A DNA stretch of 21,415 nt from a virus (IMGVR_UViG_2617270975_000009:1-21415); one strand, 5' to 3'; numbered from the stretch's first letter, positions 12,001 to 18,000 are shown. Program-made: the numbers.

Positions 12001-15000
12001 CTTGAATCTATAAGCGAGAGATACACCCGCTTGCTTCAGCTTTATGTAAACAAAGACAGAGAAATGAGCTTGATAAAAATATCTGATTTAATGAGTAGAG
12101 ATTTATAGCAAGCAAAATCCTACGTAAACGTTTTAAGTAAATTTCGCGATTTCCGCTTTGAATACGCTACTGTGTATTTCAAAGCGGATAATCTTCTCAA
12201 AAAAATATTTTATTTTTATCCGCTATCACCCATTCACCGGTTTGTTTAATCTCCTTTCTGTCTACTGATGTCCATTAAAGAAGATGACAGAATATAGGAG
12301 TAAACATGTCTCAATCATTTATTCGTCTTTCTGAGGTTCAACGCCGTACTGGTTACAGCAAAGCGTGGATTTATCGGCTCATCAAAGAACAGCGATTCCC
12401 TCAATCTGTAAAGATTGGAAGCCGATCAATTGCGTTTATTGAAAGTGAAATTGAAGAATGGATTAATCAGCGCATCGCTGAGTCGCGTGGCGAGGTAGCG
12501 TAATGAATAAGAAAAACCGCCCATTACAGGCGGCTAATTCAGATATTCGCGTATCTGATGTTACGCCCCTTACAAAATCCCTTCAAGCACCAAAGCGCAC
12601 ACCGAAAAAGCATCGTGCCAGAGTCTATATGCTGCGTACTGGTATAGAGGGATGGACAGAAAATGACATTCTTCGCTACTGCCGTCTGTCTTCTGGTCGT
12701 AACTATGCAACAGAGTTAGAACGCCAGCTTGGAATCACTCTGGAGCGTATCGACGAAAAGAATCCTGATGGTATCGGAACACACCTTCGCTACCGTTTCT
12801 CCTGCCGTGGTGATGTTCTGAAAGTGATCACTCATATTAACCATCTTGCGAACATAAATGATCACAACGGACTTTCTCAGCAGGAAATTGCCGACATTCT
12901 GAAACTCTACCCGGACGCGTTTAACGCCGCTTAACGGAGACTGAAAATGAACATCGAAAAAAGCAGATTAATTTCTGAGGCCGCCCCTCATCTGAACGCC
13001 TCTCTGAGCACAATTAACGGTAATGAATTTGCCGCAATTGTCCCGGTTATTCCTGGTCATATCGGTGGGCGTGAAACCAATATTGTTAGCGCAAAAGCGT
13101 TACACAAAGCGTTGGGCGTGGGAAAAGACTTCTCTACATGGATCACTGATCGCATCTCTGAATATGACTTCACCATTGGGCACGATTACTCAGTCCATAA
13201 AACTATTTCCCCAAATTTGGGGAAAAGCCCGAATGGCGTGGCTTACAGAAAGATTAAGCAGTCTGGCAGACCCGGCAAAGACTATCTGTTAAGTGTCGGA
13301 ATGGCGAAAGAACTGGCAATGATCGAACGCAATGATCAGGGTCGCGCTATCCGCCGTTATTTCATCCAGTGCGAGGAAGAATTACAGCGTAGCGTTCCTG
13401 AAATCGCCGCCCGCTATCGTCGCCAGCTAAAAGCCCGTATCAGTGCCGCAAACAACTTTAAGCCAATGTGCGATGCGCTGAATATGGCCCGTGCCGAGCA
13501 GGGGAAAACGACGCAGCAACACCACTACACAAACGAGAGCAATATGATTTCTCGTATCGTTCTTGGTGGGCTAACTGCTAAGCAGTGGGCGCGGATAAAT
13601 GGCTATTCTGGCGAACCTCGCGACCATATGAACGCAGAACAACTTGAGCACCTCTCATATCTCGAAAGCACCAATATCACGTTAATTGATATGGGCATGG
13701 AATATGAGCAGCGCAAAGGAGAACTCCCCCGCCTGTCGCAACGCTGGCTCGCTAAGCGTCTGGAGGTGGTCCATGTTTAAGCCGACAGGAACACCACAAC
13801 CTCAAAAACGCTACAAGGATGCCCACGGAGCACTCGTTACTGTCGAAAGCGTGTCTCACAACCGAGTGACGTTTTATCGCGACGGGTATCAATCGCCATG
13901 CGTACAACCGCTGGCGCGCTTCATGAAGGAGTTCGCGGAGGTTAACAAATGCTAACCGTCCAGAAGAAGATATTTTCACTGGCTGGTATGTCGCCAAAAT
14001 CCAGCAATATGACAGCAAAGTCTGGCATTAATACAGCAGATACAAGCAAAGTTTATCATTTTCTGGTGGTGGGAGCGGATGCCTTAACTATGTCAGAAAT
14101 TACGGTCGATGGTGTTAGCGTTGAGAAGGTCGGCGGCTGCGCCAGAGAATTTCTGGTCGTAGATGGCTTTCTCTGCTCGCGTAGTGACTCCACAAAAACC
14201 TTCGTCCACACGCGCGACGTTAACGAAATGAGCGCGATGTATTGTGCATCTGGTGCTTCCAATAGTGAGTTTTCGGAGTCCATAAAAAAGAGCTTGCCGT
14301 TATGCGGCAACACGGTTTATGGTTATAAGGCACCTCATAAAACGGGTGCCGGGTTTCGCAGCCCGGAAATGTACGAGGCGACACATGACGCGCCGAGCGT
14401 CTTTTTTTGTGCCGTTAGCCAGACTCACACTTTTTTCAGTGATGCGGTTATAATCCGCGTCGCTTGCAAAATTATGGTGGGCTGGACAGGGCAGCCGAAA
14501 GGCTGGCCGGTTTCCTTGTACGCCGGTACTGCGAACTCTGTTCAGTCCACCACCAGCGAGTTTCGCAGCTCCGGTGGTGGGAAGAACTCCCAGTACAAGG
14601 AGGCTGCCACATGCTGGCTACTACCCCTACCCAAAAACCGCAATTTATCTGGATTATCGCCGCAGTTCGCCGCGATTGCCCGACAATTACCGCCAAAATT
14701 CATCATATTGCTGCCGAGTCTGAACGCGATGCTCGCCGTTCTCTGGTGCGCGATCACATCTGCTTTTTTGCTGGTCGTATCCGCATGGAGGTGGCACATG
14801 ATTAAAACCTACGATGTGCATATGGATCCCCTCGAACGCACAAGCCAGATCATCACACTGACAGAAGTGATTAACGACATTCTGGTGAGCAACTCTCCCT
14901 CACGAGACGAAAGACTGAAGGCGTTACTCGCGATATTGGATCTCGCCGTTCGTGACGTTCATTTCCTGCTGGAAGGTGGCGAAATGCCAGGAAAAACGGG

Positions 15001-18000
15001 GGCAACCAATGAATAACTCAATTAATACCCCTCGCCTTACGTCCGCACTTCAATTAATCGAGCAAGCAGCGGCTGTCCTGGTTGCTGTCAGTCTTTCGGC
15101 TGAAGAAATGGACGCTACTGATGTCGTGGATGCGATTAAAGCGTGCTCATCTTTGGTTAACGATGCCCGTGCCGAGCTGGTAATTCTTGGGGGTGAAAAA
15201 TGAATATCAACTTAATTTATCGTCATCCGTGTGAGCTGGAAATTGAATCATTGCTGGGGCGTGAAGAGCCATATCCAGACACATTCACTCCCGCAGATTG
15301 CGCGACTGAACGGCTTACCAGAGCGCGCACAGGTCTGGTTCATGTGATGAATGAGATTGTTCCCTCGGTGGGCGGGGAACAGGCGACAGTAATCAATAGC
15401 TGGCTACAAAAAGTTACCTCCCTGATAGATATCGGTTTAATCGATGTGGAGAGTGCGAAATGACCAACATCCAGCTCATTGAAGCGCAATGTCGCATCGA
15501 ACAGGTTCAGACTGTTTTAGGGTTCTGGCTTGAAGGGGCCAGCCCCAGCAACAGAGACAAGTTAATGATTGGCGCGGTTATGTCACTGCTCAATGGCGTA
15601 CCAGAAGCTATTCAGGAAGCGGACGAATTGTTGGGCAAATATGAGTTACAGAATCATTCAGGCGAGGCGAAACATGAATAATTTCTTAACTTTCCATACA
15701 GAAGCAACGCCTGACGGCGTAAACATCATGTACCGCAGCAACGATGGCATGACAGAACGCGTTGAGGCCGTCTCATATATTGATGCCGTAAATCGTCTGG
15801 ATGCCGGGGATTATGACGATAAACCAGATGAAGGTATGTCAATACATCTCGCTATTGCCGATGGCGGCAACCAAGGATATTTCGATTACACATCACAGCA
15901 TAACGTCATTATGTGGAGATGGCTGATCGCAACAGTATTCATGCTGGAAATGAGAGAGGAAAACGGCACTGTCAGCATCATTGATGATACTGGCAATCCT
16001 TCCGAAGTGGCTGTTTATTCCAACGGCATCGTCGCCATGCCGCTGTATCCAGTAGCAGAGCGCCTCGCTATGGCAAACAACATTGAGGGAGCGATGATAG
16101 AACGTTTTGGCATCGAGTCTGGCACAGAACGCGCCATCATTTTCTACAGAGCCATGATGGATGTGGAACAAGGAGCACTGACTCCATTTGGTCGTGAAAC
16201 GCTTGCTGAACTTCACAACAGCTTTATAGCTGAACTGAATGAAAACGGCATGCCAGCGGAACCAGTGACGCACTGAGGATGGAGCCATGATTACTAAAAA
16301 TTTCCGACTGAATGCGCTGGCAAATAAGTATGCGTCGGCACTGTATAACCACATTACCTCCACCAGCGGCGGGGACTATTTCATGGTTGATGCGGACGGC
16401 GAGGCCGTACGTGTGGAAATCGTTAATGGAGTAAAAGGCGTTCGCAGCCTGATCGATAGCTACACACTGGCAGCCATGAAAGTGTTCTACCCGCAGTGGG
16501 AAACCGTGGGGATCGAGCTTCTTGAGCGTTGCGTCACTAAGGACGGATTGACTGACGTCGGGCGTGAGATATGGCAAAGCATGGTTAATGACATGGGCGC
16601 AACTGTAGCGGGAGGTTCTCATGCGTGAAAATGCAGAAATGGCGCTTAGCTCCGCAATCGGAGAGCAGGTGGCAAAGATTGCTGGTGCTGTGTGGATTCA
16701 TAACCTTCATTCTACTGGTGAAGAGAAAATGGCAATTCAGACGCCAGAGGGACGCACCATTACTACATCTCTGAAGCCGTCAGATGTTTGTGATCTGATT
16801 TGCGCATTCATGTACCCAGCAATGAGGACTGTCCACGGCGATAAGTGGAAACTTGCGACAACCGCTGAATTTGATATGTGGCTAAACAATGATGGCATGC
16901 TGACTGATTACGGAATAACCAAGTGGCAGATGCTGGTTAGCCATATCGCAAACGCTATAGACCACGTGGGGTACGGTGATGCGAAACATTGATCTTATCC
17001 GTCAGGTTATCAGTGCGTCTGAAAACAACTGGCCTCATGTGCTGGGCTGCCTGAACATAAATGTCCCTGACTCTCCGCGCCGTCATGCTCCCTGCCCTGC
17101 ATGTGGGGGCAAAGATCGATTCCGGTTCGATGACAACGGGCGCGGTAGCTTCATCTGTAATCAGTGCGGCGCTGGTGATGGGCTGGATTTAATTAAACGC
17201 GTAAATAACTGCGACACAACAGAGGCGGCGCTTCTTGCCGCTGATGTTCTGGGTATTGATTACCGGACAACGGAAACACCAGAAGCCACCAGCCAGAAAC
17301 GGGAACAACTGGAAACCGAGCGCCAGCGACGCGAACAGGAGCGCCTGAAAAGGGCAGAGAAGGACGAACAACAAAGACGGGATACGTTTTCCCGTCAGTT
17401 TGATGACATGCGCAGAAAGGCTGTAAACGGCAAATCTGATTATCTGGTTGCGAAAGGGGTAGGTGATTTTACATTCCCCGTGTTGCCCGATGGATCTCTG
17501 TTGCTGGCGCTGGTGGATAAATCCGGCGCAGTCACAGCAGCACAGACTATTACATCACATGGTGAAAAAAGACTCCTGACAGGTTCAGCAAAGCGGGGGG
17601 CATATCACGCCATAAACGCGCCAGAAACAACACAGAGCATCTTAATCGCAGAAGGGCTGGCAACGGCATTATCTGCCCATTTAATTCGTCCAGAGGCGCT
17701 GACAGTGGCGGCGATTGATGCCGGGAACCTGTTATATGTCGCCCAGGTACTGCGGGATAAATTTCCTTCAGCACAAATCATCATTGCTGCGGATAACGAC
17801 CACAGCGAAGGAAGACAAAACACGGGGAGAATAGCAGCAGAAAAAGCAGCTTTATCTGTTTCTGGATGGGTGGCATTACCCCCGACAGATCACAAAGCAG
17901 ACTGGAATGATTACCACCAAAAACACGGCATTAAATGCGCCACAGAAGCGTTCAATAAGTCAATGTACCAACCACAGGGTAATGGCGTGAAACAGGAGCC

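What the first reader, a model, noticed from the sequence alone, without database searches (positions are those of the whole stretch)
14611..16992. Chain of eight translationally coupled small and medium genes of unknown function upstream of the primase
Genes of 64, 72, 64, 87, 73, 200, 113 and 123 aa follow one another; seven of the eight junctions are start/stop overlaps and the remaining gap is 11 bp, so this is a single co-translated unit. Only the first has a tentative Icd-like resemblance. In P4-type elements this position holds helper-manipulation and host-interference genes, so the block is a strong candidate for an uncharacterised helper-exploitation or anti-phage module.
Basis: partly seen in the sequence, partly recalled or inferred. 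Interest (0 to 1): 0.6.

Follow-up and report, generated by a model that had tools for sequence, protein, structure and literature searches.

The report
RNA-gated early operon of a phage satellite
The eight small genes are real and make up most of the early operon of a known type of E. coli phage satellite (an EcCIMP1-like island); a small antisense RNA switches the operon on or off at its first gene, and what seven of the eight proteins do is still unknown.

Summary
Eight ORFs lie at the stated coordinates, each with a Shine-Dalgarno sequence. All eight show coding-type substitution patterns; dN/dS, measured for six of them, is 0.11-0.41.

The element is not a true P4 satellite, because sid, delta, psu and epsilon are absent. 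It is a Gram-negative PICI of the published EcCIMP1 type, where these genes are listed as hypothetical.

The block is the distal part of a longer coupled unit running from alpA to the primase. A P4/P1-type RNA immunity switch sits just upstream: an isrK/seqA-like RNA and a C4/CI-like RNA. The C4 loop is complementary to the Shine-Dalgarno region of gene 1 (Icd/Kil-like). Loop and both targets co-vary across five related loci.

Gene 2 is also the in-frame tail of a 355-codon eta-like ORF.

Genes 2-8 are acidic and vary in presence between close relatives. They are absent from elements whose primase aligns at 100% identity, so they are accessory rather than core replication factors. Genes 7 and 8 are paralogues. 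Gene 6 gives a confident model with no known fold and has homologues in ordinary temperate phages.

No evidence supports an anti-phage role, but it is not excluded.

The parts
12306..12503 (+). alpA (AlpA/Vis-family regulator). First cistron of the coupled unit.
   Evidence: Annotated as AlpA family in the identical locus. 37.5% identical to P4 Vis. Its stop overlaps the next start by 1 nt.
12503..12934 (+). 143-aa protein of unknown function, conserved next to alpA.
   Evidence: ORF listed. 75-83% identical copies in Kosakonia, Enterobacter and Cedecea relatives.
12947..13780 (+). AntA/AntB-family (Bro-network) antirepressor-like protein.
   Evidence: PF08346, E=1e-21.
13773..13955 (+). DUF4222 protein. 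Its stop overlaps the start of the eta-like ORF (ATGCTAA).
   Evidence: PF13973, E=6e-25. Junction sequence shown.
13949..15016 (+). Eta-like 355-codon 'ribosome-transit' ORF (annotated 'ash family protein'). It reads through both RNA genes, crosses icd in the +1 frame and ends as g2.
   Evidence: Open in every relative and in P4. It ends either at the icd stop or at the g2 stop. pS is about equal to pN upstream of g2, so the amino-acid sequence is unconstrained there. The PF10554 match covers aa 124-232, i.e. nt 14318-14644, over the two RNAs.
14330..14407 (+). isrK-type RNA, equivalent to the P4 seqA-like upstream target site (GUACGAGG), with an intrinsic terminator at 14387-14401 followed by a T run.
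   Evidence: Rfam RF01394, 69 bits. Terminator. Pairing with the C4 loop shown.
14470..14557 (+). C4/CI-type immunity antisense RNA. The specificity loop is at 14513-14521 (UCCUUGUAC).
   Evidence: Rfam RF01695, 81 bits. A perfect -10 hexamer (TATAAT) lies at 14449-14454, read from the sequence.
14593..14606 (+). seqC-like target: GUACAAGGAGGCUG. It includes the Shine-Dalgarno sequence of icd and is complementary to the C4 loop.
   Evidence: 9 of 9 Watson-Crick pairs, 14 nt with G-U pairs. Co-varies with the loop in five loci.
14611..14805 (+). g1: Icd/Kil-like leader cistron (64 aa, basic).
   Evidence: NF033153, E=1e-19. 41% identical to the Kil part of P4 eta/kil. dN/dS 0.24.
14798..15016 (+). 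g2: 72-aa acidic protein with its own Shine-Dalgarno sequence and ATG overlapping the icd stop. It is also the tail of the eta-like ORF.
   Evidence: A 37-39% identical homologue sits at the same position in L034-L037. pS 0.74 against pN 0.41. Annotated as WP_001582517.1 in L009.
15009..15203 (+). g3: 64-aa acidic protein. Found only in the E. coli/Salmonella lineage of the element.
   Evidence: Polymorphism 2/2/7 by codon position. Absent from L005-L008 and L034-L037.
15200..15463 (+). g4: 87-aa acidic protein.
   Evidence: 49-54% identical homologues in Kosakonia and Enterobacter genomes (L005, L006, L008) and in IMG/VR viral contigs (L034-L037). dN/dS 0.33.
15460..15681 (+). g5: 73-aa acidic protein (phrog_20558). 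Duplicated in the Cedecea relative.
   Evidence: dN/dS 0.41.
15674..16276 (+). g6: 200-aa strongly acidic protein (net charge -21, phrog_1515). Confident model with no known fold.
   Evidence: AlphaFold2 pLDDT 85.9, pTM 0.82. No fold match. 550-628 database homologues. 30-37% identical homologues in temperate phages.
16287..16628 (+). g7: 113-aa protein (phrog_37628), paralogue of g8.
   Evidence: hhalign against the g8 family: 95.6% probability, E=1e-8. dN/dS 0.13. Homologue in phage phi467 next to an ORF6N-domain gene.
16621..16992 (+). g8: 123-aa protein, paralogue of g7, from a very small family.
   Evidence: About nine single-stretch hits (several of them fragments) among 1.84 billion representative proteins. 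dN/dS 0.11.
16979..19735 (+). Primase-helicase (Zn-ribbon, Toprim, DUF927). Last cistron of the unit, overlapping g8 by 14 nt.
   Evidence: Pfam and PHROG matches. The N-terminal 360 aa are 33% identical to P4 alpha.

Best explanation
The eight ORFs are the promoter-distal cistrons of the single early (replication) operon of an EcCIMP1-type Gram-negative phage-inducible chromosomal island (PICI). The operon runs alpA, p143, antA, DUF4222, eta-like ORF (with icd nested in another frame and g2 as its tail), g3-g8, then the primase-helicase.

OFF state (inferred by analogy with P4 and P1):
- A constitutive internal promoter makes a short transcript.
- That transcript yields a C4/CI-type RNA.
- The 12-nt loop of this RNA pairs with a seqA-like site inside the isrK element, just before an intrinsic terminator.
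- The same loop also pairs with a seqC-like site that covers the Shine-Dalgarno sequence of icd.
- icd is therefore not translated. Because every downstream start codon overlaps the previous stop, no ribosome is handed on, and the untranslated RNA is terminated.
- As a result g2-g8 and the primase stay silent.

ON state (inferred):
- A helper phage induces alpA. AlpA is the master activator in EcCIMP1 and EcCICFT073.
- Ribosomes coupled from DUF4222 translate the 355-codon eta-like ORF straight across the isrK terminator, the C4 RNA and the icd start.
- This prevents termination. The ribosomes end at the g2 stop, which overlaps the g3 start, so the whole chain down to the primase is expressed.

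Shown here:
- gene reality and the coupled geometry;
- the two RNA genes;
- three-way co-variation of loop and targets;
- selective maintenance of the open eta-like frame without amino-acid constraint.

Function of g2-g8 (inferred, low confidence): they are accessory cargo, not core replication factors. They are small acidic proteins that most likely act by binding host or helper proteins during the induced cycle, as early-operon accessory genes of temperate phages do.
For: Identity of the element:
- Same gene order as the EcCIMP1 locus of E. coli MP1.
- int-alpA-pri architecture, as in classical Gram-negative PICIs.

RNA switch:
- Rfam isrK (69 bits) and C4 (81 bits) lie immediately upstream of g1.
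- An intrinsic terminator lies at 14387-14401.
- The C4 loop is 9 of 9 complementary to the icd Shine-Dalgarno region.
- Across five loci there are four different loop sequences (CCUUGUAC, CCAUUCGA, CCAUACAG, UCUGUGGAA). Matching changes occur at both the icd leader and the isrK site.
- Mageeney et al. 2023 already equate C4 and isrK hits in Gram-negative PICIs with P4 CI and seqA, and describe eta translation as preventing termination.

Eta-like ORF:
- Open for 237-364 codons in all relatives and for 218 codons in P4.
- Ends exactly at the stop that overlaps the next gene's start.
- pS is about equal to pN upstream of g2.

Single unit:
- Overlapping junctions in the window and in eight relatives.
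- No plus-strand promoter-like site within 14611-19735, and only one weak plus-strand terminator-like site, inside the primase gene.

Accessory nature of g2-g8:
- All have pI 4.2-5.6.
- L010, L020 and L026 have a primase whose aligned part is 100% identical to the window's, yet lack g7 and g8 (L010 is cut ~1.5 kb into the gene).
- L035 lacks g6.
- L005-L008 lack g2 and g3.
- In L012 the same block precedes a DUF5906-type helicase.
- g6 and g7 homologues occur in temperate phages; g6 is in the early-left region of phiP27.
Against: - No transcript or translation data were available. The OFF and ON mechanisms rest on analogy with P4 and P1 plus sequence co-variation.
- The promoter scan did not call the presumed internal promoter. 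Only a TATAAT at 14449-14454 is visible in the sequence.
- Whether g2 is made as a separate 72-aa protein, as the tail of the 355-aa product, or both, is unresolved.
- The 'protein-binding modulator' role for g2-g8 has no direct support. There is no family, fold or partner.
- g7 and g8 are under strong purifying selection (dN/dS 0.11-0.13) and abut the primase, which would also fit a replication-linked role.
Confidence: 0.62

Rival explanations
1. One reading: the block is a dedicated helper-exploitation or anti-phage (interference or superinfection-exclusion) module of the satellite.
For: - EcCIMP1, which carries the same block, adds superinfection immunity against its helper Kapi1. PADLOC and DefenseFinder find no known system, and the authors suggest a novel mechanism.
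- The proteins are small, acidic and turn over rapidly between relatives, as interference and counter-defence genes often do.
- In P4 the equivalent position holds kil and epsilon.
Against: - No PADLOC hit.
- No similarity to P4 epsilon, orf151 or orf106.
- g6 and g7 families are carried by ordinary temperate phages; the g6 homologue lies in phiP27's early-left region. This argues for a general phage-early function rather than a satellite-specific one.
- The block is predicted to be silent until induction.
- No genetic link exists between these genes and the EcCIMP1 phenotype.
Confidence: 0.2
2. g6-g8, and perhaps others, are replication accessory proteins for the adjacent primase-helicase, for example origin recognition, helicase loading or regulation.
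For: - They lie directly upstream of the primase and are translationally coupled to it.
- g7 and g8 have the lowest dN/dS in the block.
- Gram-negative PICI 'replication zones' contain extra genes such as SSB.
Against: - Elements whose primase aligns at 100% identity lack g7 and g8 (L010, L020, L026). L006 and L008 also go straight from g6 to the primase.
- L035 lacks g6.
- L012 couples the same block to a different helicase domain.
- The proteins are acidic, which is unusual for DNA binders.
- No homology to any replication family.
Confidence: 0.13
3. g2 is not an independent gene. It is only the C-terminal tail of the 355-aa eta-like/'ash family' protein, so the chain has seven free-standing small genes plus a nested pair.
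For: - g2 is in frame with the long ORF in every element that has g2.
- PGAP and other gene callers almost always report the long form.
- In P4 the analogous short product (Kil) is nested in the same frame as Eta.
Against: - g2 has its own GGAGGTGG Shine-Dalgarno sequence and an ATG overlapping the icd stop, in both the window and L036.
- Only the g2 part of the long ORF shows protein-level constraint.
- PGAP annotates g2 alone (WP_001582517.1) in L009, where sequence upstream of the RNA genes differs and the open frame is only 257 codons.
- Both products may exist, as with P4 Kil and Eta.
Confidence: 0.35

Closest known systems
EcCIMP1, a Gram-negative PICI of E. coli MP1 (Pick, Stadel and Raivio, ISME J 2025, PMC11773190)
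   Same: - Same gene order at the same thrW site: int, alpA, p143, AntA/B, DUF4222, 'ash', Icd-like, then CDSs of 195, 264, 222, 603, 342 and 372 nt, then the DUF927 primase.
- The late part also matches: DUF2824, P22-like ejection genes and PerC.
- About 98% nucleotide identity over most of the island.
   Different: - The window is circularly permuted and carries an IS3-family insertion after the primase.
- It has a DUF6387 gene between int and alpA.
- The paper treats the block as hypothetical proteins and, in the passages I searched, does not describe the RNA switch.
Satellite P4 left operon and immunity (CI RNA, seqA/seqC, nested kil/eta, then epsilon, orf151, orf106, alpha)
   Same: - A C4/CI-type RNA with an upstream and a downstream target.
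- A Kil/Icd-like first cistron.
- A long eta-like ORF read through the RNA region.
- A primase as the last gene.
   Different: - No sid, delta, psu or epsilon.
- The cargo genes are unrelated to epsilon, orf151 and orf106.
- The helicase domain is DUF927, not that of P4 alpha: only the N-terminal ~360 aa align with alpha.
- Here the eta-like frame is shifted by one nucleotide. It bypasses icd and ends in g2, instead of ending as Kil.
Phage P1/P7 immI region (c4 antisense RNA, icd, ant)
   Same: The C4 RNA loop masks the ribosome-binding site of icd, and icd translation is required for expression of the coupled downstream gene. The P1 mechanism is from my own knowledge of the P1 literature. The Rfam C4 match and Icd family membership were tested here.
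   Different: The downstream cargo is a chain of seven unknown genes plus a primase, rather than the antirepressor Ant.
Four-zone genome organisation of Gram-negative PICIs (Mageeney et al., NAR Genom Bioinform 2023, PMC10111431)
   Same: [quoted passage not shown] The window fits all four.
   Different: In the passages I read, that survey does not discuss the small genes between the immunity RNAs and the primase, loop-target co-variation, or the frame-shifted eta-g2 arrangement.

Membership tests
P4-like satellite (in the strict sense) | Capsid-hijacking module sid-delta-psu together with int and alpha (definition as used in PMC13612085). | tested here: not met
   tblastn of all P4 proteins against the window matched only int, the N-terminal part of alpha, eta/kil and vis. 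sid, delta, psu and epsilon gave no match at E<=0.01.
Gram-negative PICI (classical, EcCIMP1 type) | int-alpA-pri core in that order, with no structural or lysis module of its own. | tested here: met
   int 9870-11084, alpA 12306-12503, primase 16979-19735. The late zone holds only DUF2824 and P22-type ejection genes. Collinear with EcCIMP1.
Gram-negative PICI (classical, EcCIMP1 type) | Induction and mobilisation by a helper phage. | not testable with these tools
   Shown experimentally for EcCIMP1 with Kapi1, but not for this copy. The circularly permuted window is compatible with an excised circle or a tandem array.
P4/P1-type antisense-RNA immunity (C4/CI RNA) | A C4/CI-family RNA gene upstream of an icd/kil cistron. 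| tested here: met
   RF01695, 81 bits, at 14470-14557. g1 starts at 14611.
P4/P1-type antisense-RNA immunity (C4/CI RNA) | Loop complementary to two target sites, the downstream one covering the icd ribosome-binding site, with specificity variants that co-vary. | tested here: met
   Pairings of 7-14 nt to the icd leader and to the isrK site in five loci, with four loop variants and matching target changes.
P4/P1-type antisense-RNA immunity (C4/CI RNA) | The RNA actually represses translation or causes termination. | not testable with these tools
   Needs reporter fusions or transcript mapping.
Icd family (g1) | Match to NCBIfam NF033153 above the curated cut-off. | tested here: met
   70.4 bits against a cut-off of 25, E=1e-19. 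Cell-division inhibition itself was not tested.
Known anti-phage defence systems (g1-g8) | Significant match to a PADLOC-DB model. | tested here: not met
   Best E-values 0.005-0.03, scores 10-15 bits. DefenseFinder and PADLOC were also negative on EcCIMP1 according to its authors.
P4 ORF106 / DUF5375 (g6 C-terminal half) | Significant sequence or profile similarity to PF17345. | tested here: inconclusive
   Precomputed PF17345 flags appear on some family members. However, hmmscan gave 1 of 66 members at E=0.015, and hhalign against P4 ORF106 gave 5.9% probability, E=0.006.

The most novel reading that the evidence does not exclude
One or more of the acidic proteins g2-g8 may be the still-unknown determinant of the helper-specific superinfection immunity reported for EcCIMP1. 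Candidates include g6, which has no known fold, and the g7/g8 paralogue pair. That would make them a new small-protein anti-phage or helper-manipulation module, held silent by an antisense-RNA switch and released only when a helper induces alpA.
Probability: 0.15. Interest if true: 0.65.

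Novelty: new member of a known kind. Interest (0 to 1): 0.35.

Why it matters
- **Distribution.** About 600 of 5,426 complete E. coli genomes carry at least part of this block. It belongs to a satellite family with experimentally shown mobilisation and an unexplained immunity phenotype.
- **A candidate for the missing repressor.** Fillol-Salom et al. 2018 state that whether Gram-negative PICIs have a global repressor is unclear. The co-varying RNA switch in front of the operon offers a concrete, testable candidate. It also explains how one regulatory event at icd can control seven cargo genes and the replication protein.
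- **Annotation.** The analysis indicates that the 'ash family protein' annotation, and the Pfam PF10554 family behind it, largely sit over RNA genes and a reading frame kept open for ribosome transit. That affects thousands of annotated records.
- **Limit.** The functions of g2-g8 remain open. As a discovery the block itself is ordinary: uncharacterised early-operon cargo of a known kind of element.

Tried and rejected
- **Concatenated query.** A g2+g3+g4+g5 query to the large protein search returned only g2 embedded in 'ash family' ORFs and nothing for g3-g5. One search was largely wasted.
- **First g6 model.** AlphaFold2 with a shallow 22-sequence alignment gave pLDDT 52 and was discarded. 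A 66-sequence alignment including 31-40% identical homologues gave pLDDT 86.
- **Shared origin of the small proteins.** I tested whether g2, g3, g4 and g5 and the extra small proteins of relatives are diverged copies of one helical-hairpin family. All-against-all hhalign gave no pair above 30% probability, so the idea was dropped. Only g7 and g8 proved related.
- **Link of g6 to P4 ORF106/DUF5375.** Inconclusive.
- **Profile searches against PDB sequences.** The g4, g5, g7 and g8 families gave nothing below E=0.08.
- **Spurious ORFs.** Rejected on dN/dS and codon-position evidence.
- **The 355-aa ORF as a conventional protein gene.** Rejected, because pS is about equal to pN in that frame upstream of g2 and N-terminal polymorphism shows no third-position bias (20/13/23).
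- **The 355-aa ORF as pure chance.** Also rejected. It is open in every lineage and always ends at a coupling junction.

Full report
**1. The observation**

| Gene | Coordinates | Length |
|---|---|---|
| g1 | 14611-14805 | 64 aa |
| g2 | 14798-15016 | 72 aa |
| g3 | 15009-15203 | 64 aa |
| g4 | 15200-15463 | 87 aa |
| g5 | 15460-15681 | 73 aa |
| g6 | 15674-16276 | 200 aa |
| g7 | 16287-16628 | 113 aa |
| g8 | 16621-16992 | 123 aa |

They are followed by a 918/919-aa protein with a primase zinc ribbon, a Toprim domain and DUF927.

All eight start with ATG behind a purine-rich Shine-Dalgarno sequence. The junctions are overlaps of 8, 8, 4, 4 and 8 nt, a 10-nt gap (not 11), an 8-nt overlap, and a 14-nt overlap into the primase.

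They are real genes:
- Against a divergent relative from IMG/VR (L036), dN/dS is 0.24, 0.19, 0.33, 0.41, 0.13 and 0.11 for g1, g2, g4, g5, g7 and g8. For g6, pS is 0.83 against pN 0.42.
- Among near-identical copies, variable sites pile up at third codon positions for g2, g3, g5, g7 and g8.
- In strain DJH_137urine, PGAP annotates exactly these eight CDSs.

**2. What the element is**

The segment is 100% identical to chromosomal DNA of several E. coli strains. At least part of it occurs in 603 of 5,426 complete genomes.

In those genomes it lies in an island at tRNA-Thr (thrW). The island carries, in order: integrase, AlpA, a 143-aa protein, an AntA/AntB protein, DUF4222, an 'ash family protein', an Icd-like protein, six or seven hypothetical proteins, and a TOPRIM/DUF927 protein.

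The same order, followed by DUF2824, P22-type ejection genes and PerC, is found in EcCIMP1 of E. coli MP1. EcCIMP1 is a Gram-negative PICI shown experimentally to be excised and transferred by the P22-like phage Kapi1.

A search of the window with all P4 proteins finds only int, the N-terminal part of alpha, eta/kil and vis. It does not find sid, delta, psu, epsilon, orf151 or orf106. The element is therefore a PICI related to P4 in its regulatory core, not a P4-type satellite.

**3.

Rfam places an isrK-type RNA at 14330-14407 and a C4-type antisense RNA at 14470-14557. The isrK element ends in an intrinsic terminator.

The 12-nt loop of the second C4 hairpin (UCCUUGUAC) is perfectly complementary to GUACAAGGA at 14593-14601. 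That sequence contains the Shine-Dalgarno sequence of g1. The same loop also pairs with GUACGAGG inside isrK.

In five loci with recognisable RNAs, the loop has four different sequences. Both targets carry the matching changes:

| Locus | C4 loop | icd leader site | isrK site |
|---|---|---|---|
| Window | CCUUGUAC | GUACAAGG | GUACGAGG |
| L034, L005 | CCAUUCGA | UCGAAUGG | UCGAAUGG |
| L036 | CCAUACAG | CUGUAUGG | CUGUAUGG |
| L006 | UCUGUGGAA | UUCCACAGA | UCCACAG |

This is the design of P4 immunity (CI with seqA and seqC) and of the P1/P7 c4-icd system. g1 belongs to the Icd family and aligns with the Kil part of P4 eta/kil. That C4 and isrK hits occur in Gram-negative PICIs, and correspond to CI and seqA, was already noted by Mageeney et al. 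2023.

**4. The long overlapping ORF**

g2 is in frame with a 355-codon ORF (13949-15016), which PGAP usually calls 'ash family protein'.

An open frame of 237-364 codons crosses the two RNA genes in every relative, and one of 218 codons does so in P4. It ends in one of two ways:
- at the icd stop, in the icd frame (P4, L005, L006, L008, L026);
- shifted by one nucleotide, at the g2 stop (the window, L012, L034-L037).

In each case that stop overlaps the start of the next gene.

In this frame pS is about equal to pN upstream of g2: 0.60 against 0.57 in the N-terminal part and 0.33 against 0.28 over the RNAs. Over icd, pN exceeds pS. Only the g2 part shows protein-level constraint, with pS 0.74 against pN 0.41.

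So the frame is kept open, but its amino-acid sequence is not conserved. That is what is expected if ribosome transit is the function, as described for P4 eta, whose translation from the upstream promoter prevents immunity-specific termination.

The start of the long ORF overlaps the DUF4222 stop. DUF4222, antA, p143 and alpA are also tightly linked. The coupled unit therefore begins at alpA, not at 14611.

**5. The cargo, g2-g8**

No Pfam, NCBIfam or PADLOC family matches g2-g8. g5, g6 and g7 fall into PHROGs of unknown function. All seven are acidic, with pI 4.2-5.6, and g6 has a net charge of -21.

Gene content between icd and the primase is mosaic:
- Kosakonia and Enterobacter relatives have icd-g4-(X or g5)-g6-(g7).
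- A Cedecea relative has two g5 copies and three other small genes.
- L034-L037 have 10-11 genes, including a 37-39% identical g2.
- L010, L020 and L026 lack g7 and g8 although their primase aligns at 100% identity (L010's copy is cut off ~1.5 kb in).
- L035 lacks g6.
- L012 has the same block in front of a DUF5906-type helicase.

Only icd and the RNA region are universal. The one junction that is never an overlap follows g6. There the TGA stop lies inside the next gene's Shine-Dalgarno sequence.

g7 and g8 are paralogues: BLASTP gives E=5e-4, and hhalign gives 95.6% probability with E=1e-8. g8 has only about nine related cluster representatives among 1.84 billion proteins.

g6 has 550-628 database relatives. 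It also has 30-37% identical homologues in bona fide temperate phages, including phiP27 L06 in the early-left region, Stx phages, Klebsiella phages and phi467. In phi467 a g7 homologue lies two genes further on.

**6. Interpretation**

The architecture supports a P4-like two-state operon.

- **Uninduced.** The C4-type RNA blocks icd translation and favours termination. Because every downstream gene depends on a ribosome handed on from the previous stop codon, g2-g8 and the primase stay off.
- **Induced.** After helper-induced alpA expression, ribosomes translating the eta-like frame override the switch and feed into g3 and onward.

These steps are inferred from sequence co-variation and from P4 and P1 precedent. 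They have not been measured.

The cargo proteins are accessory. Their presence or absence is uncoupled from the primase, so a core replication role is unlikely.

It remains possible because EcCIMP1 has an unexplained superinfection-immunity phenotype. The presence of g6 and g7 families in ordinary phages argues for a general early-phase function.

**7. Verdict**

The feature is a new member of a known kind: the early operon of a Gram-negative PICI under P4/P1-type RNA immunity, carrying uncharacterised cargo.

Details that I did not find in the papers consulted:
- three-way loop-target co-variation within PICIs;
- the frame-shifted eta-g2 arrangement;
- the g7/g8 paralogy;
- the apparently novel fold of g6.

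Interest is modest.

Noticed in passing
window 1-423, 9688-9714 and 20140-21415: The window is a circular permutation of the island. Positions 424-9714 match the right part and 9688-20139 the left part of the island in strain 6409. They are joined at a 27-nt att core that contains the 3' end of thrW (TCCTATTATCGGCACCA). One IS3-family element (ALIL pseudoknot, TGAACCGCCCC ends, TAA target duplication) is split across the two window ends. This fits an excised circular copy or a tandem array; I could not tell which.
   Followed up: partly
window 14318-14644: The Pfam 'Phage_ASH' (PF10554) match of the 355-aa ORF lies exactly over the isrK and C4 RNA genes. In that frame pS is about equal to pN. 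The family, and the 'ash family protein' annotation, probably reflect conserved RNA genes and a frame kept open for ribosome transit, rather than a conserved protein.
   Followed up: partly
window 14606-14613; L005 6347-6358; L026 3804-4005: A one-nucleotide difference in the spacer between the GGAGG and the icd ATG (CTGCCAC against CTGCCGCT) decides where the eta-like frame ends: as Icd/Kil (as in P4) or bypassing icd to end in g2. g2 is present only in elements with the shifted frame. L026, which has g2, looks like a recombinant in which the long frame again ends at icd.
   Followed up: partly
window 14513-14521; L005, L006, L034, L036 C4 loops: Four different C4-loop specificities occur among five related islands. 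This implies heteroimmune groups of PICIs, analogous to P1 against P7.
   Followed up: partly
window 11145-11212: An Rfam int-alpA RNA (RF02996, 46.7 bits) lies between the integrase and the DUF6387 gene. The same motif is present in L005 and L007.
   Followed up: no
window 786-5444: The island's late zone carries DUF2824, a P22 gp7-like protein, an Inj_translocase (gp20-like) protein and a 701-aa protein annotated 'injection protein' in the near-identical strain 6409. These are ejection-protein homologues of a P22-like helper, as noted for EcCIMP1_017-019. It is unusual cargo for a satellite.
   Followed up: no
L012 4782-5606 (E. coli M160133): The same g1-g8 block is followed by a protein annotated as DUF5906 (P4 alpha-type helicase) instead of DUF927. 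The N-terminal primase part is 93% identical. This suggests domain swapping within the primase-helicase gene.
   Followed up: no
L010 3003-3266; Klebsiella phage hits H80-H85: Misleading names have propagated in databases. A g4 homologue is called 'nicotinic acetylcholine receptor subunit beta', and g6 homologues are called '2-polyprenylphenol hydroxylase related flavodoxin oxidoreductase'. Nothing in the sequences supports either name.
   Followed up: no
L038 3806-5330 (phage phi467): In phage phi467, a g6 homologue, an ORF6N (KilA-N-like) gene and a g7 homologue lie side by side in the early region after a DicA-like repressor. So g6 and g7 are also linked outside satellites.
   Followed up: partly
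L034-L037 3440-3667: A 75-aa basic ORF sits between g6 and g7 in the IMG/VR relatives. It overlaps the g7 start by 10 nt and has no counterpart in the window. I did not test whether it is coding.
   Followed up: no
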